Shown here: positions 14,888 through 41,084 of the stretch, piece by piece
How positions within the stretch are numbered: the stretch's first letter is position 1
Layout of the letters: each line of letters opens with the position of its first letter
Assembly: GCA_903825435.1 (NCBI GenBank)
Contig: CAIKAP010000081.1
Coordinates: 13,118-77,117, forward strand
Source: an uncultured Verrucomicrobiota bacterium
GTDB lineage: Bacteria > Verrucomicrobiota > Verrucomicrobiia > Palsa-1439
Direction: 5' to 3'
DNA length: 64,000 bases
Program-made: the position numbers and the translations under genes
The notes under the pieces: generated by a model
The model's database searches: none
What the model was told of the DNA's origin: nothing
Seen by the model: the letters and a program-made list of their open reading frames with translations, nothing else

Positions 14888-16332
14888 CGATGCCCGCCGA
14901 GATCGGAATCGTACACGTAGCCTTCCTCGCCGTGTTCGCTGACGTCGAGGCCTTGCATCTCAAGCTCCGGTTCGACGCGGAGGTCGCCCAGTAACTTGCC
15001 GACGAGCCACGCGATGGCCAGCGTGGCACCGACCGACCATACCAACATCAGGCCGCCAGCCTTGAGCTGTTCCAGCCAGAGCGTCTTGCCGACGAGACCG
15101 TTCAGGTTCGTCGCGAGGTTCGGGTTGATCTTCGTCGAGGCAAACACCCCGGCCAGGATCGTCCCGAGCGTGCCGCCGACGGCGTGGACGCCAAACGTGT
15201 CGAGCGAATCGTCATAGCCGAACTTTGATTTCAGCTTGCTGCACGACAGGAACGTCGCCGTGCCCGCCACCGCGCCAATCAGAATCGCCGAACCGGCGCT
15301 GACAAAACCGCAGCCGGGCGTGATCGTCGCCAGACCCGCGACGGCACCGGAACAGAAGCCGAGCACGCTCGGTTTGCCGCGCGTGATGTACTCGATACCG
15401 GCCCACGCGACGCTACCGACTGCGGCGGCCAACGTGGTGGCGACAAACGCGTTCGACGCGATGCCGTCGGCCGCGACCGCGCTGCCGGCGTTGAAGCCGT
15501 ACCAGCCGACCCACAACATGCCGGTGCCAACCATGCAGAGCACCATCGAGTGCGGCGGCATCGGTTCCTTGCCGTGGCCGAGACGTTTGCCGAGGAAGAT
15601 GCAGAGCGCCAACGCCGACCAGCCGCTGGTCATGTGAACAACGATGCCGCCTGCGAAATCAATCGCCTTGATCTTGGCGTCGGGATTGGCGAGGCCGTTC
15701 ATCCAGCCGCCGTTGCCCCAGATCAGGTGCGCCGCGGGGAAATAGACGATGAACATCCAGAGCGTGCTGAACAACAGAATGGCGGAGAACTTCATCCGTT
15801 CGGCGATGGCGCCGATGATGAGCGCCGGGGTGATGATGGCGAACATGAGCTGATAGATCGCGAAGATGTTGTGCGAGACCCACGAGGCGTAGTCGGGGTT
15901 CGGCGTGGCGTCAACGTTTTTGAAGAAGGCAAATCCAAATCCGCCGAGGAAGCCGTTGCCCTTGCCGAAACAGAGGCTGTAGCCAACGGCCCACCACAAC
16001 ACCGACACCAGCCCGGCAAGGCCGAGGCATTGCGCCAGCACCGAAAGCACGTTCTTGCGGCGCACGAGGCCGCCGTAGAACAGCGCCAGCCCCGGCAACG
16101 TCATGAACAACACCAGCGCCGACGAGACCATCATCCAGCCGTTGTGGCCCGGCCCCGGCCCGGCGACCTTGGTTGCCGTGGTGGTGCGGGCCGTGTTGTT
16201 GAGGTAAGCCTCAATGTCGGCGACGCGCTGTTCGAGCGTCGGTTCCTTCGCGGGCGCGTCCGCGGCGCGAAGCGTGTTGGCAAAACACAGTGCGAGCAAC
16301 AAAACGACACAATACCGGCGTATCAAGTGCAT
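14884..16332 (-). CDS. amt: ammonium transporter with N-terminal signal peptide/coiled-coil extension
   Basis: Amt signatures (GGIVVHMTSGWSALALCIFLGKR); start set at MHLIRRY (ATG 16330-16332, AGGAG upstream) rather than ORF start 16416. Confidence 0.85.
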   Translation of the reverse strand: MHLIRRYCVVLLLALCFANTLRAADAPAKEPTLEQRVADIEAYLNNTARTTTATKVAGPGPGHNGWMMVSSALVLFMTLPGLALFYGGLVRRKNVLSVLAQCLGLAGLVSVLWWAVGYSLCFGKGNGFLGGFGFAFFKNVDATPNPDYASWVSHNIFAIYQLMFAIITPALIIGAIAERMKFSAILLFSTLWMFIVYFPAAHLIWGNGGWMNGLANPDAKIKAIDFAGGIVVHMTSGWSALALCIFLGKRLGHGKEPMPPHSMVLCMVGTGMLWVGWYGFNAGSAVAADGIASNAFVATTLAAAVGSVAWAGIEYITRGKPSVLGFCSGAVAGLATITPGCGFVSAGSAILIGAVAGTATFLSCSKLKSKFGYDDSLDTFGVHAVGGTLGTILAGVFASTKINPNLATNLNGLVGKTLWLEQLKAGGLMLVWSVGATLAIAWLVGKLLGDLRVEPELEMQGLDVSEHGEEGYVYDSDLGGHR

Positions 16333-16365
16333 AACAAAACTCTCCTTCGTCAGGAGGCCGTCGGA

Positions 16366-16382
16366 ATGCAATACCTGTGCCA
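16366..16382 (-). promoter_or_regulatory. sigma-54 (-24/-12) promoter for amt
   Basis: minus strand reads CTGGCACAGGTATTGCATT = TGGCAC-N5-TTGCA, about 45 bp upstream of the amt ATG. Confidence 0.7.
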
Positions 16383-16471
16383 GTCGCAATGGTGTGGTTT
16401 TCAACCTCCACCACAACAGTCACTTCCGGTTTTGCGATGAACACACACCAACATCGCTGGTCGTCGAAAAC

Positions 16472-16496
16472 TGACCAGCGTGGTCAAATCACGCCA
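16472..16496. promoter_or_regulatory. palindromic upstream site TGACCAGCGTGGTCAAATCACGCCA (putative enhancer-binding-protein UAS)
   Basis: TGACCA-N3-TGGTCA inverted repeat ~90 bp upstream of the sigma-54 promoter; related copies at 18424, 29767, 36667, 43288. Confidence 0.5.
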
Positions 16497-16508
16497 ATAC
16501 CGTTTCGC

Positions 16509-18285
<1,777 letters not shown>

Positions 18286-18319
18286 GACAAATCTCCTTCG
18301 TCGGTTGACTGGCACGAAT

Positions 18320-18335
18320 GCACCGCCTGTGCCAG
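18320..18335 (-). promoter_or_regulatory. sigma-54 promoter for amt (second paralog)
   Basis: minus strand CTGGCACAGGCGGTGCA = TGGCAC-N5-GTGCA (GG/GC correctly spaced). Confidence 0.6.
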
Positions 18336-18382
18336 TGGCGGGGGCGATTTCGACAAACGAAGCCGGTGCAAGCACTTCCGCA

Positions 18383-18450
18383 CAACCGGAATAAAACCGG
18401 AACATGACGCCGGTGCGGTCAACTAACCAACGTGGTCAATTTCCGACACC
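18383..18450. repeat. 68-bp composite repeat: GTTCCGG element (rc) + TAACCAACGTGGTCAATTTCCGACACC upstream site; left copy of kdp-flanking direct repeat
   Basis: about 91% identical to 29727-29792; lies in the divergent amt/kdpA intergenic region. Confidence 0.75.
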
Positions 18451-23729: not shown

Positions 23730-24683
23730 CTAAAGTGAGCAAAGCCAGCGCGTCAAAGAGGCGATTTGGCCTTCGTCGGTAAGGTTGGCAGCATTTTCAA
23801 TCTTACCGGATTGAAGCTGCGACCAGATTTCTTTTGCCATTTTCGTTTCGATGGCCGCGCCAATGAAGAACGTGTGGGGTTTCTGTTTGTGCTTGGCGAA
23901 CGATGTTTGGATGCGATCCAGAGCGGTGCGGGCGGTCTTCCAGTGTTCGTCCGCACCGGCAGGGTCAATGCCGCCTTTCAATTCGCCGAGTGCGATGTAG
24001 GCTGCGGCGTTGCCGTATACCTGCCGGCACAGGGCTTCGGGGGCGGAGTTGAAAAGCGACAGATCAACGTTGTTGCGAAATAACGGCACCGTCAGGTTGT
24101 AGATCAAGGTTCTGGTCTTACCATTGATCTGCCAACTCAGGCCGCGGACGTGGAGTTCTATGTCGGCGTCATCTTCTGGCGTGTCCGACCAGACGTTGCT
24201 CTCACCGTGCAACCACCGGTAGCCGTTGCCCGCTAATTTGAGGTGCGCGATGATCGAGCGCGTAAGTTTGCACTGTGCCATGAAACCGCCAGCATTTCGC
24301 ATTGAGCCGCCCAACGTATCGCCGCGTGTGAGCAAGAATCGGAAGACAAGTTCCTCAACAAAATTCATACCGGCTGGTTCGAGAAAATTCGCGATTAGCT
24401 CTTCGACGGCTTTGCGCTTGTCGGCCTTTTGTAGGTGGTTCGCAGCCTTGTCGGAAATGCCGGCTGCCGTTACCAGTCCGGATTGGATTGCTGGAATCTT
24501 CAGGAGGTCAGACGGTCGCTGTGCTTGAGATGCAGCAGCCTTCAAGGCACGCGCCTGAACCACATAGGGAGTCGCTCGGCGGTTCTTCTCCAATGCGAGC
24601 GCGACAAAGCCGGCACGAACGGCTTCATAGGTGGTTTCAAGATCAGCCGCAGACTTCAGGTGGGAGCGATAGGGTTTGTTCAT
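23730..24683 (-). CDS. putative Type II restriction endonuclease (partner of adjacent methyltransferase)
   Basis: 317 aa, no recognised family; tail-to-head with the MTase 3 bp away; reduced GC; assignment is by context. Confidence 0.45.
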
Positions 24684-24686
24684 GGT

Positions 24687-26276
24687 TCAACGTTTCCGCC
24701 AGACGTACACGCATTTTCGCAGCGGGTCGCGTCCGTGTGCGCCCATTTGTTGGCTGCTGTTTCCTTTTCCGTTTGGCAAAACCAAAATGCTTTCGATGTT
24801 GAAGCCGAGTTGTGCGGCCATTTCCGAGAGAATAAGGTCCACCGCAATGCTCGCACCGGCATAGCGCACGTTGTCATTGACCATGATAAGCGGCGCGCCA
24901 CGTTTCAACACGCGGACACTCTCGGCAATGACACAGGCCATTTCGTAGAAGTACCCTCGCACCATACGAGGAATGCCGGTATTGTTCAGCAGGTCGAGTT
25001 CTCGCTGAGAATCCAGATACCGCAGGATGCGTTGAAGCAGGGGGAGTTCGTTTGCCACGGCCAGAGCGTGTTTCCACTTTGGATTGAGTGCAAGCATGTC
25101 CTTCTCACGGTTCTCGACGGTGCAACTTAACATAGCCTGTCGCAGTTTAACCAAGCCAGCCTCGTCCACGCCGAGCAACGCAAGTTCCAACGCGTATGTG
25201 CGGGTGTAGTCGTAGCGGTTGCAGTAGGGCGGCGATGTGAGAATACAGTCGTAAGCAGCAGCTTTGAACGTCGGCATGATCTCCAAACAAGAACCGCTGT
25301 GCAAAACCACGTCGGCGCGCGAGTGTGTCGTGAAAAACAAGTCTTCGGGAATTGTTGCTGCTCCGAGATCGTCAACGATCTCGCCGAGTTTGCCTTTGAT
25401 GGCTTCATCGAAAGGTTGAATCCGTCCTTTGTCGAAGATCTTCTTCCCGATACGACGACCGGAACGATAATCCCATCGCAGATACTGCCCATCCTTGCGC
25501 GTAAAACCGACCGACTCAAGAACGCAAAGCAATGCGAACCGTAGAATCGCCTTCACAACGTCGTTCTCATGCTCGGAAGCGGCCAAGTATCTCCCGATGG
25601 CTTTGACTGTCGCCGGTGGGTACGCCCCCTTCGTGATGCGTAGTTCGTTAATCGAACGGCATTCCTTGGAGTGTTGCCACGGTTGCCGAACCTTCCATCG
25701 TGTGAGCGTTTCGATGTCTGGAGGACGGAACTCCAAATCAATCATCTGCTTGGTTTCGATGATGGTCTGCCCGATTGGCAGAAGTTCGATTCCTTCCGCT
25801 TTCATTCCCATCGCGCCAGCCGCAAACAAGGCCGTGCCACTCCCTGCAAATGGATCGAGCAGGACGCCGGAGGACAAATGGAAACGATTCAGAAAATGCT
25901 CAACCAGTCCGGCGGAAAACGCTTCCTTGTATTTGTACCACCGGTAAACGGCGCGGCTTTTGTTCGCCTGAAAGCTCACGAGCGAGCGCGTCAGTTCGTT
26001 GGCGACAACGATCTTGTGTCGCCAACGACGCTCCAAATCAGAACTTAAGGCGTCAATCTCCCGCAGTGCCGGGGAATCCACAACCTCGCCGTTCTTGGGC
26101 TCGCGCGCATCATCTAAAACGGCCGGAGACGCCAGCGCAAAAGATACAGACTGCACCTTCCTTGGCGGCTGTTCCATCGTTTGGGTGCCGAGCGTTTCCT
26201 CACGCACACGGGGTGTGCGGCGCTTCTTCGGCAAATACGTGACTTGTTTCCTCGGCATCAGCGCGGAGTATGCCAA
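24687..26276 (-). CDS. alpha-class DNA methyltransferase (N4-cytosine or N6-adenine; motif I ... TRD ... SPPY)
   Basis: motif I LLDPFAGSGT about 280 aa before motif IV ILTSPPYCNRYDYT; true start may be internal (MEQPP). Confidence 0.75.
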   Translation of the reverse strand: MAYSALMPRKQVTYLPKKRRTPRVREETLGTQTMEQPPRKVQSVSFALASPAVLDDAREPKNGEVVDSPALREIDALSSDLERRWRHKIVVANELTRSLVSFQANKSRAVYRWYKYKEAFSAGLVEHFLNRFHLSSGVLLDPFAGSGTALFAAGAMGMKAEGIELLPIGQTIIETKQMIDLEFRPPDIETLTRWKVRQPWQHSKECRSINELRITKGAYPPATVKAIGRYLAASEHENDVVKAILRFALLCVLESVGFTRKDGQYLRWDYRSGRRIGKKIFDKGRIQPFDEAIKGKLGEIVDDLGAATIPEDLFFTTHSRADVVLHSGSCLEIMPTFKAAAYDCILTSPPYCNRYDYTRTYALELALLGVDEAGLVKLRQAMLSCTVENREKDMLALNPKWKHALAVANELPLLQRILRYLDSQRELDLLNNTGIPRMVRGYFYEMACVIAESVRVLKRGAPLIMVNDNVRYAGASIAVDLILSEMAAQLGFNIESILVLPNGKGNSSQQMGAHGRDPLRKCVYVWRKR

Positions 26277-29726: not shown

Positions 29727-29792
29727 AGCCGGAACAAAACCGGAACATGACGCCGGTGCAGTCAACTAACCAGCGTGGTCAATTCCCGACAC
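29727..29792. repeat. right copy of 68-bp composite repeat (GTTCCGG element rc + TAACCAGCGTGGTCAATTCCCGACAC)
   Basis: about 91% identical to 18383-18450, same orientation, 34 bp after kdpE stop; no sigma-54 promoter or gene follows it. Confidence 0.75.
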
Positions 29793-29817: not shown

Positions 29818-30837
29818 TTAGCTTTGGCCGCTTTCTGCCTGCCGTGTAATCGCCGGTAACTGAAGCCTCTCGATTCGTTGCATGCCGAGAGGTTGGGGAC
29901 TTCCACCCGCCAGTACGCGACCGACGTTTTCTTGAATTGATACGACATCCCACTGAATGGTTTGATAGATCACATAGCGATCCTGCCACACATGCACGTG
30001 GTCGCGCATTTCCTTGACAAGAAGCTTTCTCGCTTTGTCGGACTGTTGAATCGCTTCTTCAAGCGGGACTTTGTAGGTCGGACTTGTGATGTAATTCAAC
30101 ATCTGTGTTGCCACGCGGTTCTTTTCTTCACCGTCCAGCTTCGCCTTGGTCATTTCGACGATGTGAGCGCGGCAAAGATGCGCGAGGGGCACAACTCCGA
30201 GTGGTGCAACGATCAGGACGTTGCCTTCACGCCCCAAACCGGTAAACCCCTTCTTGATACCCGTCGTGATTAGAATCGCGAAGTGAGCCTCACGAATTCG
30301 CTTTGCCTCCGCTGTTTGGTGAATGTGTGACGGCAAAATGCTGGGTGTTCGTTTGCACTCGTAGATAATCACACCAGCCTGACGCCCTTGAAAGATGACA
30401 GCATGGAGAATATCCCCTCCCTTGCCCTTGTGCTCGATTCGATCCTGAGGAAACTCCTTCTGTAGGCGTCTGCACAGTGTATCTTCAAACTCCAAGCCTT
30501 CTGTTTGCGGCGTCGTCCCTTTGGCCAATTGCGCGATGCGCGCATTCGCAATCTCCAACTTCTTCTGTAGTCCAGCCGTCAACCGTTCCTGCCGCTTTCT
30601 CTCCACCAGTGCTCCCTTCTTTTGCCCGTCTGCGTCTGCCTCTTTTAATCGTTGGCGTGTTTGGGAGAGTTGCTTCTTCAAGGAACTCGTGGCTTGTTGT
30701 GCCTGATGCAGCAGGCGATTGGCCTTCTCAATGTCTGCCTTCTGAGCCTTCTCCCTCTCGGCCTGAATATGCAGAACCGCTTCGTACTTGCCCTTCGCTA
30801 ACGTGCTTCCACAGAGCGGACACTTGTATGTCTTCAT
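29818..30837 (-). CDS. DUF2130-family protein (N-terminal zinc ribbon, coiled coil, C-terminal PD-(D/E)XK-like nuclease core)
   Basis: start MKTYKCPLCGS (GAGGAG RBS; ATG at 30835-30837); coiled-coil middle; D...ECK motif (GGDILHAV...IIYECKR); GC about 50%. Confidence 0.65.
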   Translation of the reverse strand: MKTYKCPLCGSTLAKGKYEAVLHIQAEREKAQKADIEKANRLLHQAQQATSSLKKQLSQTRQRLKEADADGQKKGALVERKRQERLTAGLQKKLEIANARIAQLAKGTTPQTEGLEFEDTLCRRLQKEFPQDRIEHKGKGGDILHAVIFQGRQAGVIIYECKRTPSILPSHIHQTAEAKRIREAHFAILITTGIKKGFTGLGREGNVLIVAPLGVVPLAHLCRAHIVEMTKAKLDGEEKNRVATQMLNYITSPTYKVPLEEAIQQSDKARKLLVKEMRDHVHVWQDRYVIYQTIQWDVVSIQENVGRVLAGGSPQPLGMQRIERLQLPAITRQAESGQS

Positions 30838-31112
30838 AGTCTCCTCGTGTAAGAAGGTTGCGACCGCTGGAGCGGTCTTGACCAATCAAAACCACTTCTG
30901 GCGAACGCTTTTGACGGGACTCGTGAATAGTCCGGAGATTTACTCCTGACACCGAACACTCGTCGGTGTTCCGGCAACACCGTATCTGCTGGCGTTTGTA
31001 GCAGTGTGGGCGCTTGAGCATTCTGTCCAGCGGCTTCTTCCTTCGTTTTCATTCCGCCACTTTATGCGAGGACATGGCAGCATAAAACAGACACGCGGTC
31101 TGAGGGGATGTC

Positions 31113-31883
31113 CTATTTTTTTGAGCGCGGCCGGCCGCGTTTTTTGAAGTGCAATCCGATTCGCCGACAGAGTTGCTGTACCATTTGCTGGTCTGCGAGT
31201 TCCAGTTCCGGTGTCTTGCCGCGCATTGAGGGAATGCGCGCCGTAAGCCAATGATACAACTCAGTCGTGCTACCGAGTGCTGAGACTTCCCACCAGTTTT
31301 CAAGCAGCGCCGAATAGATCGGTAAAGCGGTCGTGTGTCTGGCCGGCCTGCCCTGATCATCTAGAAGCTTAACGTGCAGTCCGCGAGCAAAGCCATCAAA
31401 CCACGCAATCGCGTGTTGGAAGGAAAAGAACTTCGCAGAGCCTATGCGCTGTTTGAGCGATTCAATCTGTTCTTCGTCCCTGAATAGTTTGTGTTCCTCT
31501 GTTGGGTGAAACTCTGAAGCCATCAAACAACCAGCATAAAAGCCTTCTTTTCGGCTCAAACTTTCTGGTGTCGCGTCATCTTCAATCTCCCATTTCGGCA
31601 ATGGAAACATCGCTTGGATTCTTTGACGAACAGTGACGACCCATTCAGGAACTGTTCGCTCCGACCAGAAGAGAAGCTCTTCCAACTCCTTTGGAACACA
31701 GTTTTCTCGTTTTATGTCCTCAAGAATGTCGTTCGGGAACATCGAGCGGATCATGGCGGACATCCATCGCACCAAGTAAAGCAAGCCCTCTATTTCGCGC
31801 GGGGGTCGTACCCCACGCCGCTTACAGTCCTCCGCAATCTCAATAACCTTGCGGAGTGCATCTTTGCTGGTGTCGTCCGACAT
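31113..31883 (-). CDS. hypothetical protein (no recognisable domain), co-oriented with the DUF2130 gene
   Basis: 256 aa, low GC, no TM; a GC-rich hairpin and stop codon lie at its 3' end. Confidence 0.5.
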   Translation of the reverse strand: MSDDTSKDALRKVIEIAEDCKRRGVRPPREIEGLLYLVRWMSAMIRSMFPNDILEDIKRENCVPKELEELLFWSERTVPEWVVTVRQRIQAMFPLPKWEIEDDATPESLSRKEGFYAGCLMASEFHPTEEHKLFRDEEQIESLKQRIGSAKFFSFQHAIAWFDGFARGLHVKLLDDQGRPARHTTALPIYSALLENWWEVSALGSTTELYHWLTARIPSMRGKTPELELADQQMVQQLCRRIGLHFKKRGRPRSKK

Positions 31884-34177: not shown

Positions 34178-35263
34178 TCACTGGCGAAACTCCGGGTAAC
34201 TCATCAATCCCGTCTCGCCGATATCCAGTCCTTCCCATTCGACCTCCGGCGCCACGCGCATCGGTGTCAACCGGTCCAGCGCCTTGAACAACACCCATGC
34301 GGCCGCGAATCCACCGCCGCCGAGCGCCGCCATGCCGGCGACTTGCGCCGCAAAATGTCCAGTACTGGCAAACGACGCGGCCAAAACGCCGCAGAGGCCG
34401 CCCGCGCCGTGGATCGAGATCGAACCGGCTGGGTCGTCAATTTTCACGCGGTCGAACCACGGCACCAGCACGCACGCCAGCAACCCGGCGACTGCGCCGG
34501 TGAACAGGCCGAACGTCGGCCCCGCGATGGCGCCGCTGGCGGCCAGCCCGGCCAACAGGCCGGTCACCGCGAGCGTCGGGTCGGGTTTGCCGTTTCGCAA
34601 CGTCATGAAAGTGACCGCAGCGATCGTGCCGCCTGCGCCCGCCAGCGCGGTGGTGGCGGCGTCGGCGTTGAGCGCGAGCCAGCCGACGCTGAGCAGCATG
34701 CTGCCGGTTAGCGCGAGCGGAACGTTGTGTGCAGGGATCGGCAGCGGGCGGCCGTCCTTGTTGTAGCGGCCGAGACGCGGACCGATGACCAGCGCACCGG
34801 CCAGTGCGACCGCGCCGCCGAAAAGATGAATCACGCCGGAGCCGCTGGGGTCGAGGTAGCCGAGCTTGGCGAGCCAGCCGCCATTCCAACTCCAGAGTGC
34901 GGCGACCGGCCAGAGCACGCCCGCAATGGCGAGCGCGCTGAGGTAGAAATGTTTAAGGCTCCAGCGTTCCGCGAGCGCGCCGATGGGGATGCAAACGACA
35001 ATCGCGGTGGTCGCGGCACGGAAAAGAAAGAGGGTGTTGTTGTCCGGAACATTTCCGGAACATCGGCTGCCGAGGAGCCAGAACGCGGCGAGCGCGAGCG
35101 CGGTGCCGAACAACGCGAGGAAAATGGTGTGACTGGCGTTTTTGGCCCGGCTCAGCCCGGCGGCCAGGAGAGAGAGGCCGCCGGGCATGAGGAGGACCAA
35201 CACGGCCGCCGCCGTAACCGACGAAGGAGACGCACTGACGACCGTGTTGGTGGGTATGGGCAT
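34178..35263 (-). CDS. short Amt/Rh-type ammonium channel (third paralog)
   Basis: 361 aa; VIHLFGGAVALAGALVIGPRLGRY and HGAGGLCGVLAA motifs; contains an in-frame GTTCCGG element (35044-35063) encoding RCSGNVPDN. Confidence 0.75.
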   Translation of the reverse strand: MPIPTNTVVSASPSSVTAAAVLVLLMPGGLSLLAAGLSRAKNASHTIFLALFGTALALAAFWLLGSRCSGNVPDNNTLFLFRAATTAIVVCIPIGALAERWSLKHFYLSALAIAGVLWPVAALWSWNGGWLAKLGYLDPSGSGVIHLFGGAVALAGALVIGPRLGRYNKDGRPLPIPAHNVPLALTGSMLLSVGWLALNADAATTALAGAGGTIAAVTFMTLRNGKPDPTLAVTGLLAGLAASGAIAGPTFGLFTGAVAGLLACVLVPWFDRVKIDDPAGSISIHGAGGLCGVLAASFASTGHFAAQVAGMAALGGGGFAAAWVLFKALDRLTPMRVAPEVEWEGLDIGETGLMSYPEFRQ

Positions 35264-35268
35264 GGCGT

Positions 35269-36492
35269 TTAGAATACGTAGGCAACGCCAACGCCCAAGA
35301 GGACCTGATCGCTCTTGGCGGTGTTACCACTGGTGAACGGTTCTTTCTCGCAGTGATCCCAGCGAATCTCGGGACGCACTTGGAGGTTTGGCAGCGGTGT
35401 CAGGCTCAACGTTGCTGTCAGGCTGGCAACGTTCGGCGAGCTGCCTGCCGGGCCTGCCCCAGTACGGGTGGCGCCGTCGTCCACGATGTAGTCGCCGCGC
35501 AATGCAAGGCCGACCTTGTCGGTGAACTGATACACGCCCCACAATCCGGCGCCGTACCATTCGGCTTTGGCGACGGTGCCGGAGACCGGGTGAGCGGCGT
35601 TGTCTTCCGTGCCGTAGTCGAGCTGTCCGTACAGCGTGAGCTTCGAACCGACCTTCTGGGTGACTATGACTTCGCCGCCTTTGCGCCAGCTCGAGGTATT
35701 GCCGGTTTGTTCGGGGCCGCCGTAGCCGAGCAACGAGATGGAGGTCTTGTCGCTGAGCGTCAGGTTTATCTTGCCCATGTAGGAGTAACCGCTGTTGTTG
35801 TCGGTGACTTTGTCCCAGCCGTTGAACACGGCAGCCTGAACTTCAACCTTGTCGTTGAACTTGTACGAAAGCAGTGCGCCGACCTGTGAGGTGTTCTCGA
35901 CGTACAGGAACTGATTGCCGAGTGTCCAGTTCGGGTTGGCGGTTTCCTCGACGACCTCGACGCCCATCAACGTCACCATCTTACCGATCGCGACCTTCAA
36001 GCCGTTGCCGATGGGCACGTTGATGTTGACGTAGGCCTGTTCGAGGCAGATCGGGTCGCGACCACTGCCAAGCCCGGACGTGAAGCTGTTGATGAACTTC
36101 GCGTCCTCACCGACGATGAGGTCGGCGCGGTAACCGATGTCGAACTTGTCCTTGTTGTAGTCAACGGGTTTTCCCAGCGCCAACTTCAGCTTGTTGGCGG
36201 CGAACTGGTCGTTCTTGTTGACGTAGCCGCCGACGGGCGCGCTGTCGTTGAAGTTGTGGAAGAACGAAGAGGAAACGTAGCCGCTGAGCGTGGACTTCCC
36301 GAGGAAGGCCAGCGTCTGGGCCGGCAACGTGTTCGTCGTCAGCGCGGAGCCTTCCAACTGCGCTACGCGCTGTTCGAGCGCCTTGATCTTGTCGAGCAAC
36401 TCCTGTTCGCCGGCGTAGGCGGTGCCGCAGAGCAGCACCGCTGCGGCTACAGCCGGTCGCAGTTTCGTCATCCATCGCATTCGGTCTTTCAT
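35269..36492 (-). CDS. outer-membrane beta-barrel porin with N-terminal coiled coil, co-transcribed with the short Amt
   Basis: signal peptide MKDRMRWMTKLRPAVAAAVLLCGTAYA (GGAGGAAAT RBS); alternating beta-strand pattern; C-terminal VGVAYVF; ORF track start 36633 is inflated by the element ATG. Confidence 0.6.
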   Translation of the reverse strand: MKDRMRWMTKLRPAVAAAVLLCGTAYAGEQELLDKIKALEQRVAQLEGSALTTNTLPAQTLAFLGKSTLSGYVSSSFFHNFNDSAPVGGYVNKNDQFAANKLKLALGKPVDYNKDKFDIGYRADLIVGEDAKFINSFTSGLGSGRDPICLEQAYVNINVPIGNGLKVAIGKMVTLMGVEVVEETANPNWTLGNQFLYVENTSQVGALLSYKFNDKVEVQAAVFNGWDKVTDNNSGYSYMGKINLTLSDKTSISLLGYGGPEQTGNTSSWRKGGEVIVTQKVGSKLTLYGQLDYGTEDNAAHPVSGTVAKAEWYGAGLWGVYQFTDKVGLALRGDYIVDDGATRTGAGPAGSSPNVASLTATLSLTPLPNLQVRPEIRWDHCEKEPFTSGNTAKSDQVLLGVGVAYVF

Positions 36493-36526
36493 ATTTCCTC
36501 CAACGGTTGAGTTTGCGTTTTCGTAT

Positions 36527-36546
36527 CCGGAACATTTCCGGAACAT
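36527..36546 (-). repeat. GTTCCGG element (rc: ATGTTCCGGAAATGTTCCGG) in porin 5' leader
   Basis: lies between the putative sigma-54 promoter and the porin ATG; same 24-nt string as at 35044-35067. Confidence 0.75.
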
Positions 36547-36560
36547 CGGCAGACCACATT

Positions 36561-36577
36561 CGCAGTGCCCGTGCCAG
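36561..36577 (-). promoter_or_regulatory. putative sigma-54 promoter for porin-amt operon
   Basis: minus strand CTGGCACGGGCACTGCG (TGGCACG-N4-CTGCG; GG and GC correctly spaced). Confidence 0.45.
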
Positions 36578-36666
36578 CAGTGGAGAGGGTTTCCGTAAAC
36601 GCTTGGCGTGCAATTCACTGTGGGAAGCGACAAAGTTCAGCCGGTGCAGAAGAAGACAACAGCGGT

Positions 36667-36690
36667 AGCCAGTCTGGTCAAATCACGCCA
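36667..36690. promoter_or_regulatory. UAS-family site AGCCAGTCTGGTCAAATCACGCCA
   Basis: 16/16 identity with TGGTCAAATCACGCCA at 16481-16496. Confidence 0.5.
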
Positions 36691-36734
36691 CGGCGCGCTT
36701 GTCGAAACGGCGATGACTGACTACACTGCGCGAT

Positions 36735-39203
36735 ATGGTCAAAAGATTCTCCACGTTTAGGGCGGCTCTTGTTAAGTCCAAGACTGAAGAGGAAGTCAAA
36801 CATGCCTACGCCGAACATTTCGGATTGGATTATGACACGGAGTTTCGCCACGACCTGTATTCCCGGGAAGTCTTCTACGAATTCAAATTCTCGCGCAGTC
36901 TGCAAAAGCGGGAGTCTCGCGCTGCCGTCATCGCGCAAGTGTTGTATTACGTTCGGCAACTGCGTTTTGGTCACGCAGACAAGGTTGTTCCGCCAGTGAT
37001 TTGCATTGCGGAGGGAAAGCAGGCTTTTTTCACAGAGACGAACAAGTGGCGGAAGTTTTATAGCAACGACAGCAAATACGATTGGGAACTTGCTCCGAGC
37101 AATCCGGACAAGCAATTGATTGCAGACCTCGTCGCTTTTCCGGAGACGAACAGCATCAAGGTCTTTGATGTTCTCGATGAAGCCGAGTATGAGATGTTCA
37201 AGCAGCTTCTTGAACATCATCGCGCTACGCAGCTTGCGTTGGATTTCCGAGTTAAGAAGCTCATCACCGAGGACAATTTCGAGGAAGTTTTTGATTATTG
37301 GAACAAATGTTTCGGCGAAGACGTCCGCAACGGAACGAAACCTTCGCGTTACTTTTTGTGCGACATCCAGCAAGGCCGTTCGCTCTACGATCGGAAAGAA
37401 AATAAAGTCGTATTTTTTGTTGGCCCGGAGGAGAAGCGCGCGAAGAAAATCCTGCCGAAAGAATATGAGTGGTTTTGGTCGAACTACGAGAAAGTCACCA
37501 ATGCTGACACCGCGCGCAACATCCTTGCGAAAGTCGACCGTCTGACCGAGGAGCCGATCCGCCGATTCACGGGCGAGTTTTTTACTCCTGTTCCTTTTGC
37601 TCGGAAGGCTCATCAATATCTTGAAAGGGTTCTCGGACCGAAGTGGTGGACGAAGAATTATCGCCTTTGGGATATGGCAGCAGGCACGGGAAATCTGGAA
37701 TGGTTTCTCCCCGCCGATTCTTACAAGAGCATTTACCTTTCGACGCTCTATGAAGAGGACGTGCAGCATTGCAAGCGCGTGTTTCCGGGGGCGACCATTT
37801 TCCAGTATGATTATCTGAATGATGACGTTGACAGTGTTTTTGATCAGCAATTACTCTTTAAGCAGCCCCGCAAAATGCCCGAGAGTTTATTGCGAGATCT
37901 GGCAAATCCAAAAATCAAATGGATCGTTTTCCTCAACCCACCGTTTGCCACGTCGAATAAGACGGGTTTCACCGGCGAAAGCAAGAAAAGCGTGAGCGAC
38001 ACTAAAATCCGCCCGCTCATGCACGAGCAGGGCCTGGGCGAAGTCTCGCGTGAATTGTTCGCGCAATTTGCTTTTCGCATCCAGCGGGAGTTCAGCGGCA
38101 AGAAGGCGTTTCTCGGTCTTTTCTCCAAGCTCAAATATGTCAACGCCAATAACGACCAGAAATTCCGTGATAACGTTTTCCAGTTTTTATTCAAAGACGG
38201 CTTTATGTTTTCGTCGGCGACATTTTCAGGCACTCAGCCAACGAATTCATTTCCGGTCGGCTTCCTAATTTGGGATTTATCGCGCCGCAAAAAACTTGAA
38301 GAACAAAACATTGAAGTCGCCATCCTCGATGCCGACACGAGCAAAATTGGACGAAAACGAATCGTCGCCGAACATCGCTCGCGCTTCTTGAGCAAATGGA
38401 TTGACCGACCGCCAACCACGGAAATCTTTCCGCCGTTTAGCAGCGCAATTTCTGTGAATGACGGCAACACAGACATCCGCGACCGTGTCGCGAAAGGTTT
38501 TCTTGCTTCGTTCATGTGCAAGGGAAACGACGTGCAAAATCACAACAACGTCGCCTTGCTCTCCGGCCCGTATGTCAGCGCGGGCGCGTTGTCCGTCGTA
38601 CCGGACAACTTCGATAAGGCGATGGTCGTTCACGCCGTCCGCAGGAGCGTTCGCCAGGGTTGGATTAACGACCGTGACCAATTCCTCCAACCCAAAGAAC
38701 AACCGGGCGCGAGTTTTGTGGTGCGCTGCGTGGTCAGAAGTCTGTTCGCCAATTCCAATGAGACCGTTTCACTGCGGAACGTTGCGTACGAGGGGAACAC
38801 GTTTCAGGTCGTTAATCATTTTTTCCCATTCAAAGTTGCCGTACTAAAGAAGTGGGAAATTTCCGATTCCGACATCAAGCATTCACTGGCGCGCGACACC
38901 GACGACCGCTTCGTTGCTAACTGGCTGGCAAAACAAAAACTGGACGCATCCAGCCGGGAACTGTTGGAACTCGGTCGTGAAATCTACAAGGCGTTTTTCA
39001 AGAACTTCAAAGATCTGCCGACCGCAAAATACAAAATCGAGCATTGGGATGCCGGTTGGTGGCAAATCAAACGATGCCTCGTCGAAGCCGGCTTGGAGAA
39101 AGAGCGCTTTGCACGAGTTGAAGAAATCAAGAAACAGTTAAACGCCGAAATTAGTGAAACGGCCTTGCAGTTGGGGATGATTGCCACCGTAGATTTGTTC
39201 TGA
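36735..39203 (+). CDS. Type IIG-like restriction-modification enzyme (N-terminal nuclease-like region + gamma-class N6-adenine MTase + C-terminal TRD), horizontally acquired
   Basis: 822 aa; motif X GEFFTP, motif I WDMAAGTGNLEW, motif IV FLNPPFATSN; candidate D...EGK nuclease motif near residue 80; GC well below flanks. Confidence 0.7.
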   Translation: MVKRFSTFRAALVKSKTEEEVKHAYAEHFGLDYDTEFRHDLYSREVFYEFKFSRSLQKRESRAAVIAQVLYYVRQLRFGHADKVVPPVICIAEGKQAFFTETNKWRKFYSNDSKYDWELAPSNPDKQLIADLVAFPETNSIKVFDVLDEAEYEMFKQLLEHHRATQLALDFRVKKLITEDNFEEVFDYWNKCFGEDVRNGTKPSRYFLCDIQQGRSLYDRKENKVVFFVGPEEKRAKKILPKEYEWFWSNYEKVTNADTARNILAKVDRLTEEPIRRFTGEFFTPVPFARKAHQYLERVLGPKWWTKNYRLWDMAAGTGNLEWFLPADSYKSIYLSTLYEEDVQHCKRVFPGATIFQYDYLNDDVDSVFDQQLLFKQPRKMPESLLRDLANPKIKWIVFLNPPFATSNKTGFTGESKKSVSDTKIRPLMHEQGLGEVSRELFAQFAFRIQREFSGKKAFLGLFSKLKYVNANNDQKFRDNVFQFLFKDGFMFSSATFSGTQPTNSFPVGFLIWDLSRRKKLEEQNIEVAILDADTSKIGRKRIVAEHRSRFLSKWIDRPPTTEIFPPFSSAISVNDGNTDIRDRVAKGFLASFMCKGNDVQNHNNVALLSGPYVSAGALSVVPDNFDKAMVVHAVRRSVRQGWINDRDQFLQPKEQPGASFVVRCVVRSLFANSNETVSLRNVAYEGNTFQVVNHFFPFKVAVLKKWEISDSDIKHSLARDTDDRFVANWLAKQKLDASSRELLELGREIYKAFFKNFKDLPTAKYKIEHWDAGWWQIKRCLVEAGLEKERFARVEEIKKQLNAEISETALQLGMIATVDLF

Positions 39204-39270
39204 AAAGGCATCTCTTCCCGTTCGCGCGGGGATGACGGCTCGCAATAGCGTGCCTTTCCGACTCACCGTC

Positions 39271-39292
39271 ATGTTCCGGTTTTGTTCCGGCT
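39271..39292 (+). repeat. GTTCCGG element (ATGTTCCGGTTTTGTTCCGGCT)
   Basis: in the convergent gap between the Type IIG gene and the PP2C-kinase gene; 26-nt identity with the 29727 copy. Confidence 0.8.
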
Positions 39293-39293
39293 T

Positions 39294-41084
39294 TTATTTC
39301 GGCGGGTGGAAGATCAGCCAGATGATCAAACCGAGAATCACCAGCAGCGGCAGGCCGATGGCGAGAATGACGGAGCGATAACGTCGCAGTGCAGATTGCA
39401 TCGGGGTGGCGGCTTGAAGCCGGTCGGCGCGGCCGGTGACGGTGACGAGTTCGGGGGAGTCGAGGTCAGCTTTCAACTCGGCGGCAGAGGCATAGCGGTC
39501 GTTGGGGTCGCGGGCCATCGCGTGCAAGATTATTTCTTCAACCTGTGGCGTGAGCGCCGGGTTGTGTTTGCGTGGCGCTTCGGGATCGCCGATGAGGCGG
39601 GCATTCATGACGACGAGCGGGTTGTCACCTTCGTACGGCGCGTGGCCGGTGAGCATTTCGTAGAGGATGGCGCCGAGCGAATAGATGTCGGTGCGGGCGT
39701 CGCCACGTTTGCCGCGGACTTGCTCGGGTGCCATGAAATCGGGCGTGCCGAGCGCGGGACTGAACCCGGCAAAGGTGATACGTTTTCCAGCCGCGCCGGC
39801 GATGCCGAAGTCCATGAGGCGGATCGTGCCGTCGGGACAGATCATGATGTTCTGCGGTTTCAGGTCGCGGTGGATGATGCCGTTTTGGTGGAGATAAATC
39901 AGGGCGTCGGTGACGCGGCTGGCAATGGAAAGGGCGTCGCGCGGTGGTAACGGGCGGACATTGGTGAGGAGGTGGGCGAGCGTGTAGCCGCGCAGGTATT
40001 CGGTGACGATGTACGGGCGGCTTTTGTTTTCGACTTTGATGAATTTGAGGATGAAAGGATGGTTGAGGCGGAGGCCGATGTCTTCTTCGCGCTCGAAGCG
40101 GGAGAAGAATCCGGGGTCGCTCTCGAACTGGAGGTGCGGGACTTTGACGGCGACGTATTGTTTGTCGTGGGCGAGGTCCTGCGCTTTGAAGATGGTGGCC
40201 ATGCCGCTGCGACTGATGGTCTCGGTGACGAGGAAACGGTTGTCGAGCGTCTGGCCGGGCTGGACTTCGGTGGTTGAGGCGGACGGCGCGGCGGGCGTGT
40301 GATAGACGGGGACGCCACGGTACGAACCGACTTCCTCGACGGCGTTGATCTGGACGACTTGGACGCTGACGTTATCTTCGGTGCCGCGTTGTTCCGCGAG
40401 GGCGACGAGCTGGCGACCGGCGGCGCTGGGATTGAACCGGCTGACGATGTCGCAGATCTCGCCGTCGGCGACACAACCGTGCAGGCCGTCGGTGCAGAGG
40501 ATGAGCCGGTCACCGGCGAGGAGATTGGTGTCGTCCACGTCAATGCGGATGGTCGGCTCCTGGCCGATGGTGCGCGTGAGCATGGAGCGGTTCTCGCTGG
40601 TGCGCGCGTCGGCCTCGTTGATGAGGCCGAACTTGCGCTGCATGGCGACGTAGGAATGATCGGTAGTGAGCTGGCGGATTTCGTTGCGGCGGGCGAGGTA
40701 GACGCGAGAGTCGCCGACGTTGCCGATGGTGGCGGTGTTGTGACGGAGGATGACGACGGCCAGCGTGGTGGCGATGCGGCTGCGACCGTGCTCCTTCATG
40801 CCCTCGTCGTACACGGCGAGGTTGGCGGCTTGAAAAATTTCGGTGATGAGTTGCTGCGGCGCGGTGCCGGGTTTGGCTTCGCGGAATATCTTGAGCGCAG
40901 CGTCAACGGCGAGCCGGCTGGCGACTTCGCCGCGCTGGAGGCCGCCGAGGCCGTCGGCAATGACGACGATACTGCCGCGCTCGCGTTTCTCGTCGAGTGA
41001 GTCGGGCTTCCAAAAACCGACGCTATCCTCGTTGTGGTCGCGAACGGGGCCTGCGGTGGTGAGTTCAGCGTAGGTCAGTTCCAT
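39294..41084 (-). CDS. bifunctional PP2C phosphatase / Hanks-type Ser/Thr protein kinase with C-terminal TM anchor
   Basis: N-terminal PP2C (NEDSVGF, IADGLGG, DGLHG), central kinase (VAVKV, HRDLKPQNIM, DFGIA, APE), C-terminal hydrophobic helix. Confidence 0.8.
   Translation of the reverse strand: MELTYAELTTAGPVRDHNEDSVGFWKPDSLDEKRERGSIVVIADGLGGLQRGEVASRLAVDAALKIFREAKPGTAPQQLITEIFQAANLAVYDEGMKEHGRSRIATTLAVVILRHNTATIGNVGDSRVYLARRNEIRQLTTDHSYVAMQRKFGLINEADARTSENRSMLTRTIGQEPTIRIDVDDTNLLAGDRLILCTDGLHGCVADGEICDIVSRFNPSAAGRQLVALAEQRGTEDNVSVQVVQINAVEEVGSYRGVPVYHTPAAPSASTTEVQPGQTLDNRFLVTETISRSGMATIFKAQDLAHDKQYVAVKVPHLQFESDPGFFSRFEREEDIGLRLNHPFILKFIKVENKSRPYIVTEYLRGYTLAHLLTNVRPLPPRDALSIASRVTDALIYLHQNGIIHRDLKPQNIMICPDGTIRLMDFGIAGAAGKRITFAGFSPALGTPDFMAPEQVRGKRGDARTDIYSLGAILYEMLTGHAPYEGDNPLVVMNARLIGDPEAPRKHNPALTPQVEEIILHAMARDPNDRYASAAELKADLDSPELVTVTGRADRLQAATPMQSALRRYRSVILAIGLPLLVILGLIIWLIFHPPK

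What the first reader, a model, noticed from the sequence alone, without database searches (positions are those of the whole stretch)
36527..39292. Low-GC Type IIG-like RM gene inserted between the porin promoter and the PP2C-kinase gene, bracketed by GTTCCGG elements
The 822-aa protein carries gamma-class N6-adenine MTase motifs (GEFFTP, DMAAGTGN, NPPF) after an N-terminal region with a candidate D...EGK nuclease motif. Its GC is far below the flanks, and the spurious 390-aa antisense ORF at 36678-37850 is a low-GC artefact. Element copies sit on both sides, and a TGGTCAAATCACGCCA site identical to the amt UAS lies 60 bp upstream. It is the third independent RM-type acquisition in the window.
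Basis: partly seen in the sequence, partly recalled or inferred. Interest (0 to 1): 0.5.

Follow-up and report, generated by a model that had tools for sequence, protein, structure and literature searches.

The report
Unannotated single-chain restriction-modification gene, horizontally acquired
A foreign, low-GC gene sitting between a porin gene and a kinase gene encodes a one-protein DNA cutter plus DNA methylase, probably a bacterial immune enzyme; its large family is labelled only "hypothetical protein" in every database searched.

Summary
The ORF is real: 36735..39203 (+), 822 aa, GC 0.50 and GC3 0.60, against about 0.61 and 0.80 in neighbouring genes.

**Insertion.** Eighty syntenic relatives keep permease-kinase-porin-amt and none has this gene. 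It is an insertion into the kinase-porin spacer.

**Protein.** The single sequence hits nothing in Pfam, NCBIfam, PADLOC or PDB. A confident AlphaFold model (pLDDT 91.5) shows:
- a spacer;
- a gamma-class N6-adenine methyltransferase (GEFFTP, DMAAGTGN, NPPF);
- a TRD-like region and a helical C-terminus.

The whole chain is closest to DrdV, LlaBIII and MmeI.

- The conserved nuclease set is E18, D40, E49-x-K51 and Q68xxxY72 (89-93 of 95 diverse relatives). The proposed E93-G-K95 is not conserved.
- The GTTCCGG doublets do flank the gene, but 13 occur across the window. They are a lineage-specific dispersed motif, not ends of this insertion.

**Family.** It has at least 1,457 clusters at 50% identity, spans many phyla and occurs on small plasmids. 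It has no conserved neighbour and no companion methylase, as in the MmeI family.

**Verdict.** A Type IIG/IIL-like restriction-modification enzyme from an unmodelled family. Activity is inferred, not shown.

The parts
36735..39203 (+). 822-aa gene for a single-chain nuclease, methyltransferase and TRD protein (Type IIG/IIL-like)
36735..37229 (+). N-terminal PD-(D/E)xK nuclease domain (about aa 1-165; boundary approximate). Conserved residues are E18, D40, E49-F-K51 and Q68-x-x-x-Y72.
37230..37559 (+). Spacer or connector domain (about aa 166-275), helices plus a small three-stranded sheet
   Evidence: Secondary structure of the models. It occupies the position of the helical spacer of MmeI (PMC4833311). 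Assigning it that role is inference.
37560..38234 (+). [quoted passage not shown] Motif X is GEFFTP (nt 37572-37589), motif I is DMAAGTGN (nt 37671-37694), and motif IV is NPPF (nt 37935-37946).
   Evidence: G280, T284, D313, G317, N401 and P402 are invariant in 95 of 95 relatives. The family profile hits DrdV at E 4.4e-5, plus M.BseCI and HsdM. PHROG 3820 'DNA methyltransferase' scores E 6e-4. Family member P0205 passes the Pfam N6_Mtase cut-off.
38235..39203 (+). C-terminal half: a beta-rich TRD-like region (about aa 501-700) and a helical C-terminal bundle (about aa 701-822)
36527..36544 (-). GTTCCGG-N4-GTTCCGG doublet about 40 bp upstream of the porin start codon. This is context, not part of the gene.
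   Evidence: It is one of 13 copies in the window.
39273..39290 (+). GTTCCGG-N4-GTTCCGG doublet between the 822-aa gene stop and the kinase stop. This is context, in inverted orientation to the left copy.
   Evidence: No direct repeat of 8 bp or more flanks the gene.
36666..36690 (.). 25-nt site (TAGCCAGTCTGGTCAAATCACGCCA) that matches 16472-16496 at 21 of 25 positions, with a 16-nt exact core. It is probably a host nitrogen-regulon operator of the divergent porin-amt operon.
   Evidence: Function is inferred from its position next to amt genes at both places.
36678..37850 (-). Spurious 390-aa antisense ORF
   Evidence: Present. It is not conserved. It is explained by the absence of TTA, CTA and TCA in sense codons 1-372.

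Best explanation
The gene encodes a stand-alone, single-polypeptide restriction-modification enzyme of the Type IIG/IIL kind, acquired by horizontal transfer into the kinase-porin intergenic region of a Verrucomicrobiota (Pedosphaera/Limisphaerales-like) genome.

**Proposed mechanism (inferred by analogy with MmeI, DrdV and BpuSI)**
- The C-terminal TRD and the gamma-class methyltransferase domain clamp an asymmetric recognition site and flip out one adenine.
- With S-adenosylmethionine the enzyme N6-methylates that adenine, which marks host DNA as self.
- On unmethylated foreign DNA, the N-terminal PD-(D/E)xK nuclease cuts at a fixed distance to one side of the site. The spacer domain holds the nuclease away from the site. 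Catalysis is assigned to D40, E49 and K51, with E18 and Q68xxxY72 in support.
- No companion methyltransferase is ever adjacent. Protection is therefore probably by the enzyme's own methylation, as in the Type IIL MmeI family.

**Shown here:** the ORF, its foreign composition, the insertion relative to syntenic genomes, the folds, the conserved catalytic residues and the solitary gene context.

**Inferred:** DNA cleavage, methylation, site specificity, cut distance and the anti-phage role.
For: **Foreign origin**
- GC is 0.499 against about 0.61 in the flanks, and GC3 is 0.604 against about 0.80.
- Syntenic loci in the 80-locus set keep the order permease, kinase, porin, amt, permease. None of the 80 kinase loci holds the gene. 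The kinase-porin gap is 480-690 bp in the syntenic loci, against 2,805 bp here.

**Fold**
- The full AF2 model has pLDDT 91.5.
- Foldseek gives BpuSI (Type IIG) and DrdV (Type IIL) at E 5.5e-10, and MmeI at 3.8e-8.

**Active sites kept under selection.** In 95 full-length representatives at 26-54% identity:
- nuclease: E18 in 89, D40 in 92, E49 in 91, K51 in 91, Q68 in 93, Y72 in 91;
- methyltransferase: G280, T284, D313, G317, N401 and P402 in 95, and Y or F at position 404 in 93.

**Sequence links to DNA methyltransferases**
- The family profile hits DrdV, M.BseCI and HsdM.
- Five of 54 members hit Pfam N6_Mtase weakly, and P0205 passes its cut-off.

**Solitary module**
- No neighbour family recurs in more than 5 of 83 loci.
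- The MmeI family shows the same pattern: no companion methyltransferase and no conserved neighbour (PMC2731913).

**Mobile or defence-like ecology**
- The distribution is sporadic across Verrucomicrobiota, Bacteroidota, Ignavibacteria, Acidobacteriota, Planctomycetes and Beta- and Gammaproteobacteria.
- The gene is carried as cargo on 9-16 kb plasmids and on pMP118.
- One relative carries an N-terminal TIR domain.
Against: - No biochemical or methylome data exist for any member. Every database name found is 'hypothetical protein', and no paper cites the accessions searched.
- The query itself scores nothing in Pfam, NCBIfam or PADLOC, including their RM models, or in PDB by sequence.
- Global TM-scores to the RM structures are low, 0.2-0.27. 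The match is domain by domain, not a rigid whole-chain superposition.
- The TRD assignment rests on position and alignment length only.
- The TRD region is not hypervariable within the close clade, so diversification of specificity is not evident.
- No homologue was found in 50,697 phage records. This is neutral evidence.
Confidence: 0.7

Rival explanations
1. It is an orphan (solitary) N6-adenine DNA methyltransferase. The N-terminal nuclease-like domain is vestigial or used only for DNA binding, so the protein methylates but does not restrict.
For: The gene stands alone. The methyltransferase motifs are the most strictly conserved part, 95 of 95. The orphan methyltransferase CamA is among the structural hits.
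Against: The full nuclease catalytic set (E18, D40, E49, K51, Q68, Y72) is kept in 89-93 of 95 relatives that are only 26-54% identical to the query. That argues for selection on catalysis. The gene is sporadic and absent from all 80 syntenic relatives, unlike lineage-conserved regulatory orphans. It also rides on small plasmids.
Confidence: 0.1
2. It is a defence or addiction protein that uses the same domains in a non-classical way. Examples are a modification-dependent or abortive-infection effector, or a plasmid-stabilising 'selfish' module, rather than a Type IIG/IIL restriction enzyme with fixed-distance cutting.
Against: The two best nuclease-domain matches and the best whole-chain matches are bona fide Type IIL and IIG enzymes. 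The domain order is identical to that of MmeI. PADLOC finds no other defence family. Only one TIR fusion was seen among the 150 representatives listed.
Confidence: 0.1
3. It is one component of a multi-gene system, such as a BREX PglX-like, Type I or Type ISP-like system, whose partners lie elsewhere in the genome.
For: PglX/BrxX, LlaBIII and HsdM are strong structural matches for the methyltransferase-TRD module.
Against: No conserved neighbour was found in 83 loci from many phyla. On 9-10 kb plasmids it is the only such gene. It has its own nuclease domain. No helicase or ATPase domain was detected. PADLOC finds no BREX or Type I hit.
Confidence: 0.05
4. It is a native, vertically inherited gene. 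Its low GC reflects only its amino-acid composition, which is rich in Lys, Phe, Asn and Glu.
For: GC2 is low, at 0.356. Across 63 loci the gene's GC tracks the host's (r = 0.94), which indicates long residence in many hosts.
Against: GC3, which is free of amino-acid effects, is 0.604 against about 0.80 in the neighbours. The gene is missing from all 80 syntenic loci. Its contexts differ between genomes. The distribution crosses phyla and includes plasmids.
Confidence: 0.03

Closest known systems
Type IIL restriction-modification enzymes of the MmeI family (MmeI, PDB 5HR4; DrdV, PDB 7LO5)
   Different: About 100-200 aa shorter (822 aa, against 919 for MmeI and about 1,016-1,029 for the DrdV chains). 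Sequence identity in structural alignments is only 9-12%. No Pfam family other than those listed reached E 0.01 in any of 54 members, and none of those listed is an MmeI model. The spacer contains a small beta-sheet as well as helices. The nuclease motif spacing is D-x8-ExK, plus QxxxY. Single-strand methylation, the two-site requirement and a 20/18 cut are untested.
Type IIG enzymes of the Eco57I/BpuSI kind (BpuSI, PDB 3S1S)
HsdR nuclease domain of Type I enzymes and RecB-family nucleases (EcoR124I HsdR 2W00, AddAB, Cas4, lambda exonuclease)
   Same: The fold is PD-(D/E)xK, and the conserved motif series is E...D...ExK...QxxxY. From my own knowledge, the QxxxY motif is characteristic of RecB-family nucleases and has been described in EcoR124I HsdR. 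I did not check this in a paper here.
   Different: There is no helicase or translocase domain. Here the nuclease is fused to a methyltransferase-TRD module.
BREX PglX/BrxX and Type ISP LlaBIII methyltransferase-TRD modules
   Different: There are no BREX partner genes and no helicase domain, and this protein has its own N-terminal nuclease.

Membership tests
Type IIG/IIL restriction-modification enzymes (functional class) | Endonuclease and methyltransferase domains in one polypeptide | tested here: met
   The N-terminal domain has a PD-(D/E)xK fold. Gamma-class methyltransferase motifs X, I and IV lie in the same chain. Whole-chain best matches are DrdV, MmeI and BpuSI.
Type IIG/IIL restriction-modification enzymes (functional class) | Target-recognition domain in the same chain | tested here: inconclusive
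Type IIG/IIL restriction-modification enzymes (functional class) | Cleavage at a fixed distance outside an asymmetric recognition site, with SAM dependence or stimulation | not testable with these tools
   This needs enzyme assays.
Type IIL (MmeI-like) subclass | No companion methyltransferase gene and no conserved neighbour | tested here: met
   In 83 loci the commonest neighbour family occurs in only 5. Contexts differ between genomes. This matches PMC2731913.
Type IIL (MmeI-like) subclass | Methylation of one strand only, with two sites needed for cleavage | not testable with these tools
   This needs methylome and cleavage experiments.
MmeI sequence family (Pfam MmeI domain models) | Significant match to the family's profile HMMs | tested here: not met
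   The query has no Pfam hit at E<=1 other than a spurious glycosyltransferase match. No MmeI model appears among the families matched by 54 members at E<=0.01.
Eco57I family (Pfam PF07669) | Significant match to PF07669 | tested here: not met
   The query has no hit. One of 54 members matches at E 0.0025.
N6_Mtase (Pfam PF02384) gamma-class adenine methyltransferases | Match to PF02384, with motifs in the order X, I, IV and an NPPY/F motif IV | tested here: inconclusive
   The query itself has no hit. Five of 54 members hit weakly. Relative P0205 passes the curated cut-off, 36.6 against 20.4 bits. The motif order and NPPF are present and invariant. The family profile hits HsdM, M.BseCI and DrdV.
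PD-(D/E)xK nuclease superfamily | Restriction-endonuclease-like alpha/beta fold, with D...(D/E)xK on adjacent strands | tested here: met
Known RM and defence protein models (PADLOC-DB 2.0.0) | Match to any RM or defence HMM | tested here: not met
   The query matches no family at E<=1. The neighbouring classical Type II RM pair scores E 1e-122 and 1e-154 in the same library.
BREX (PglX) | Co-located BREX partner genes; the methyltransferase lacks a nuclease domain | tested here: not met
   There are no conserved neighbours, no PADLOC hit, and a nuclease domain is present.
Type ISP (LlaGI/LlaBIII) | Helicase-like ATPase domain between the nuclease and the methyltransferase | tested here: not met
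   Only a spacer of about 110 aa lies between the two domains. No ATPase domain appears in Pfam or in the model.

The most novel reading that the evidence does not exclude
The lineage-specific GTTCCGG-N4-GTTCCGG doublets are not just background repeats. They may be recombination or capture sites next to which foreign defence genes accumulate. There are about 13 doublets per 64 kb, and none in the 165 loci fetched from other genomes.

Four of the six edges of the three foreign blocks in this window lie within about 100 bp of a doublet:
- the Type II RM pair at 23730-26276;
- the low-GC block at 29818-31883;
- this gene, which is flanked by an inverted pair.

Independently of that, the protein would found a previously unrecognised, cross-phylum family of single-chain restriction-modification enzymes that all current profile libraries miss.
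Probability: 0.1. Interest if true: 0.6.

Novelty: new variant of a known kind. Interest (0 to 1): 0.4.

Why it matters
**An annotation blind spot.** If the protein is an active enzyme, RM and defence annotation is missing a whole family. It has at least 1,457 clusters at 50% identity and is found in many phyla and on small plasmids. Pfam, NCBIfam, PADLOC, RefSeq and UniProt all leave it as 'hypothetical'.

**New reagents.** Single-chain Type IIG/IIL enzymes are the class whose specificity has been rationally re-engineered, as with the MmeI family. A new and compact (about 820 aa) scaffold could give new recognition sequences and cut geometries. Cultured carriers exist for direct testing: L. 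salivarius UCC118, L. helveticus FAM8627, Thiobacillus denitrificans RG and Rhodanobacter sp. B05.

**For this genome.** It is an ordinary event, one more horizontally acquired defence gene. It lies close to the control region of a nitrogen-regulated porin-amt operon.

Tried and rejected
**Single-sequence searches.** Pfam, NCBIfam, PADLOC and PDB gave nothing usable. The only Pfam line, Glyco_tranf_2_5 at E 0.007 and below its cut-off, is treated as noise.

Rejected, because it is not conserved.

**GTTCCGG doublets as terminal inverted repeats of a mobile unit.** Not supported, for four reasons:
- there are 13 copies in the window, some inside coding regions;
- there is no target-site duplication;
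- homology between gene copies ends at the ORF;
- the motif is absent from all other loci that carry the gene.

A looser association of doublets with the edges of foreign blocks remains possible.

**Sigma-54 reading of TGGTCAAATCACGCCA.** Rejected by inspection, because the GG/GC spacing does not fit.

**Promoter and terminator scan of 36400-39400.** Not above the shuffled expectation. A TTGTCG-N17-TACACT pair just upstream of the ATG was seen by eye only.

**Other searches that found nothing**
- Conserved partner genes: none.
- Phage records: no homologue.
- Literature searches by accession, and for methylome links: nothing.

**Calls that failed for technical reasons**
- The first genome scan with the 54-sequence alignment failed because the alignment was too diverse. 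It was repeated with a closer alignment.
- One Pfam call and one paper search failed on input format.

**Not possible.** Model coordinates are not exposed, so the spatial clustering of catalytic residues could not be measured.
Full report
**Observation**

The ORF at 36735..39203 (+) is real. It is 822 aa long and starts with ATG.

Its composition is clearly atypical:
- Gene GC is 0.499, against 0.612 and 0.620 in the 10 kb on either side.
- GC3 is 0.604, against 0.78-0.85 in the porin, amt, kinase and permease genes. The dip is therefore not only an amino-acid effect, although GC2 is also low at 0.356.

- an OmpL-like porin (PF07642) at 35269-36489 (-);
- an ammonium transporter at 34178-35263 (-);
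- a PP2C-plus-kinase protein at 39294-41084 (-).

The 390-aa antisense ORF at 36678..37850 lies in the codon-aligned reverse frame. It is open only because sense codons 1-372 contain no TTA, CTA or TCA. It is not conserved in homologous loci, where the longest ORF in that frame ranges from 68 to 572 aa. In L044, an 81%-identical relative, it is 86 aa.

**Is it an insertion?**

I searched metagenome contigs with the kinase protein and fetched 80 loci at 53-71% identity.
- Syntenic loci in this set keep the order permease, kinase, porin, amt, permease. Examples are L087, L088, L089, L093, L107 and L118.
- None of the 80 loci contains a homologue of the 822-aa protein.
- The kinase-porin distance in those loci is 480-690 bp, against 2,805 bp in the window.

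Nucleotide homology between this copy and 80-odd other copies of the gene runs only from 36727 to 39204, which is the ORF itself. No direct repeat of 8 bp or more flanks the gene.

So a roughly 2.5-kb segment carrying just this gene was inserted into the kinase-porin spacer. The mechanism is unknown.

**The flanking DNA motifs**

GTTCCGG-N4-GTTCCGG doublets do lie on both sides, at 36527-36544 (-) and 39273-39290 (+). They are not specific to this gene:
- The window has 11 exact doublets and 13 real copies. A search allowing up to 2 mismatches gives 14 matches against about 1 expected.
- Some copies lie inside coding regions, for example within the amt ORF at 35044-35061.
- Apart from one pair of copies, the shared sequence is only about 20-30 bp.
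- The motif is absent from all 165 loci fetched from other genomes, including those that carry the gene.

It is therefore a lineage-specific dispersed motif and not demonstrably the end of this insertion. One point is still unexplained. Four of the six edges of the three compositionally foreign blocks in the window lie within about 100 bp of a doublet.

The 16-nt TGGTCAAATCACGCCA at 36675-36690 has an exact twin at 16481-16496. By my reading the similarity extends to 21 of 25 nt. The twin lies between a glnK-like gene and an amt gene. The simplest reading is a host operator shared by nitrogen-regulated operons. That would place the left junction of the insert between 36691 and about 36727. This is inference.

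**The protein**

As a single sequence it matches nothing:
- Pfam, NCBIfam and PADLOC give no hit, and PDB by sequence gives none.
- The only weak signal is PHROG 3820, 'DNA methyltransferase', at E 6e-4.

Yet it belongs to a large family:
- 2,602 hits in the 90%-clustered database. All the names shown are 'hypothetical protein' and none has a Pfam domain.
- 1,457 representatives at 50% clustering, with the full-length architecture of about 800-860 aa kept down to 26% identity.
- RefSeq names for cultured carriers are also 'hypothetical protein': WP_059754075 in Thiobacillus denitrificans and WP_077514267 in Rhodanobacter.

In an alignment of 95 diverse full-length representatives, two sets of residues stand out:
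- Methyltransferase motifs are essentially invariant. G280-x-F/Y-x-T284-P (motif X), D313-x-x-x-G317-x-x-N320 (motif I) and N401-P-P-Y/F (motif IV) appear in the gamma-class order X, I, IV.
- An N-terminal set is kept in 89-93 of 95: E18, D40, E49-x-K51 and Q68-x-x-x-Y72. This is a PD-(D/E)xK series of the RecB type.

Position 93 is usually D and position 95 is usually N.

A profile of the family hits DrdV (7LO5) at E 4.4e-5, plus M.BseCI and Type I HsdM chains. Five of 54 members hit Pfam N6_Mtase weakly. One relative, P0205, passes the Pfam cut-off.

**Structure**

AlphaFold2 with the 54-sequence alignment gave pLDDT 91.5 and pTM 0.86.

| Search | Best matches |
|---|---|
| Foldseek against PDB, whole chain | BpuSI (Type IIG) and DrdV (Type IIL), both E 5.5e-10; MmeI 3.8e-8; then CamA, HsdM, BrxX/PglX, BsaXI |

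The N-terminal domain therefore has a restriction-endonuclease-like fold.

The domain order is nuclease (about 1-165), spacer (about 166-275), methyltransferase (about 276-500), a beta-rich TRD-like region (about 501-700) and a helical C-terminus. This parallels MmeI, which is 1-155, 156-300, 301-620, 621-825 and 826-919 (PMC4833311).

**Context and ecology**

- In 83 loci from many phyla, no neighbouring gene family recurs in more than 5 loci. Contexts differ: one copy follows FtsK and another follows argininosuccinate synthase.
- There is no adjacent second methyltransferase. This is what was reported for the MmeI family, which protects the host by single-strand methylation from the same polypeptide (PMC2731913).
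- A genome scan found 194 species-level genomes with the gene. The best 80 include Verrucomicrobiota at 72-81% identity. At about 50% identity they include Bacteroidota, Ignavibacteria, Acidobacteriota, Planctomycetes and Beta- and Gammaproteobacteria.
- The gene's GC is lower than its flanks in 54 of 63 loci (mean -0.049), while still tracking host GC (r = 0.94).
- Twenty-four plasmids carry relatives. They include 9-16 kb plasmids of Fluviibacter, Acinetobacter and Lactobacillus, and pMP118 of L. salivarius UCC118. All are annotated 'hypothetical'.
- No phage record has it.
- Variants exist. One has an N-terminal TIR domain on an otherwise complete protein. Another has a 368-aa LAGLIDADG-containing insert that replaces the motif I region, which looks like an intein.

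**Interpretation**

The best-supported reading is a horizontally acquired, stand-alone, single-chain restriction-modification enzyme of the Type IIG/IIL kind (confidence about 0.7).

*Shown:*
- the foreign composition and the insertion;
- the folds;
- both catalytic sets conserved across a deep family;
- the solitary gene context.

*Inferred by analogy:*
- site-specific N6-adenine methylation for self-marking;
- cleavage of unmodified DNA at a fixed offset set by the spacer;
- the anti-phage or anti-plasmid role.

*Rivals:*
- An orphan methyltransferase with a vestigial nuclease (0.1). The conserved nuclease residues and the sporadic distribution argue against it.
- A non-classical defence or addiction use of the same domains (0.1). 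The TIR fusion and the plasmid cargo hint at it.
- A component of a multi-gene system (0.05). No partner genes were found.
- A native gene (0.03). GC3 and synteny argue against it.

**Comparison and novelty**

The protein works like MmeI, DrdV or BpuSI, but it fails every sequence-membership test for known families. None of the matches found involves an MmeI model. Eco57I is matched by 1 of 54 members, weakly. The query matches no PADLOC RM model, whereas the classical Type II RM pair next door at 23730-26276 scores E 1e-122 and 1e-154 in that library.

I file it as a new variant of a known kind, that is, a distinct and currently unmodelled family of single-chain RM enzymes. A specialist would not be very surprised. 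The value lies in closing an annotation gap and in possible new specificities.

**The 'three RM acquisitions' claim**

One other acquisition is confirmed, the Type II pair at 23730-26276. The low-GC block at 29818-31883 has no assignable function, only weak coiled-coil-type hits to LmuB models.

Noticed in passing
window 612, 2711, 18386, 20322, 26307, 29729, 35044, 36527, 39273, 46920, 52826, 56910, 63664 (start of each 18-bp copy): A dispersed 18-bp motif, (T)GTTCCGG-[A/T-rich 4 nt]-GTTCCGG, made of two 7-bp direct repeats one helical turn apart. A search allowing up to 2 mismatches gives 14 matches against about 1 expected; 13 are real copies. It occurs on both strands, in intergenic and coding DNA, and in none of the 165 loci fetched from other genomes. 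The layout resembles an OmpR/PhoB-type box, but the density of about 1 per 5 kb is closer to that of an uptake-signal or REP-like repeat. It remains unexplained.
   Followed up: partly
window 23730-26276 (-), 29818-31883 (-), 36735-39203 (+): Four of the six edges of the three compositionally foreign blocks lie within about 100 bp of a GTTCCGG doublet (26307, 29729, 36527, 39273). The association is post hoc and rests on small numbers, but it is worth a genome-wide test.
   Followed up: partly
window 23730-24683 (-) and 24687-26276 (-): A classical Type II restriction-modification pair. The REase matches PADLOC PDLC03415 at E 1.7e-122 and the MTase matches PDLC03224 at E 2.5e-154 and Pfam N6_N4_Mtase. 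The MTase gene's GC3 is 0.63, lower than its neighbours.
   Followed up: partly
window 29818-30885 (-) and 31113-31883 (-): A second low-GC island (GC about 0.52, GC3 0.56-0.59) holds two genes with no Pfam or NCBIfam family. There are only weak coiled-coil-like hits to LmuB models (E 1.6e-5). Function is unknown.
   Followed up: partly
window 16472-16496, 36666-36690, about 18410-18450, about 29760-29790: A recurring imperfect palindrome, TTGACCA-N3-TGG(T/C)(T/C)A, lies next to three ammonium-transporter loci: amt1, amt2 after glnK, and porin-amt3. It is a candidate operator of a nitrogen regulator. Two copies share a 16-nt exact core.
   Followed up: partly
window 14884-18405 (-): An amt-glnK-amt cluster: two AmtB-like transporters of 510 and 514 aa flank a P-II (GlnK-like) gene at 16509-16895. 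The assignment is by reading the translations only.
   Followed up: no
P0123 (1,068 aa, metagenomic representative): A family member has an N-terminal TIR domain (PF13676, E 2.6e-11, aa 17-147) fused to a complete nuclease, methyltransferase and TRD protein. It is 43% identical to the window protein over residues 10-820.
   Followed up: partly
P0252 (1,221 aa) and possibly P0270 (1,144 aa): These family members carry an insert of about 368 aa containing a LAGLIDADG_3 domain. The insert replaces the stretch around methyltransferase motif I (query residues 305-329). It looks like an intein in the SAM-binding motif.
   Followed up: partly
L009 8576-10077 (JAYVQC010000168.1): A second, partial copy of the gene lies about 120 bp downstream of the full copy. 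It is homologous to window 37633-39134, the C-terminal roughly 500 aa. It may be a tandem partial duplication or a nuclease-less paralogue.
   Followed up: no
L166, L167, L168, L169, L170 (plasmids pSHINM1, pYUSHP14-3, pFAM8627, pMP118, pUM157): Relatives at 24-30% identity are cargo genes on small plasmids of cultured bacteria, next to replication, partition, toxin-antitoxin and Fic genes. All are annotated 'hypothetical protein'. These strains are convenient for experiments.
   Followed up: partly
window 36691-36734: A TTGTCG-N17-TACACT pair ends 7 nt before the ATG, and no Shine-Dalgarno sequence is visible. This may be a weak sigma-70-type promoter giving a leaderless or near-leaderless mRNA. 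It was seen by eye only and falls below the scan tool's threshold.
   Followed up: no
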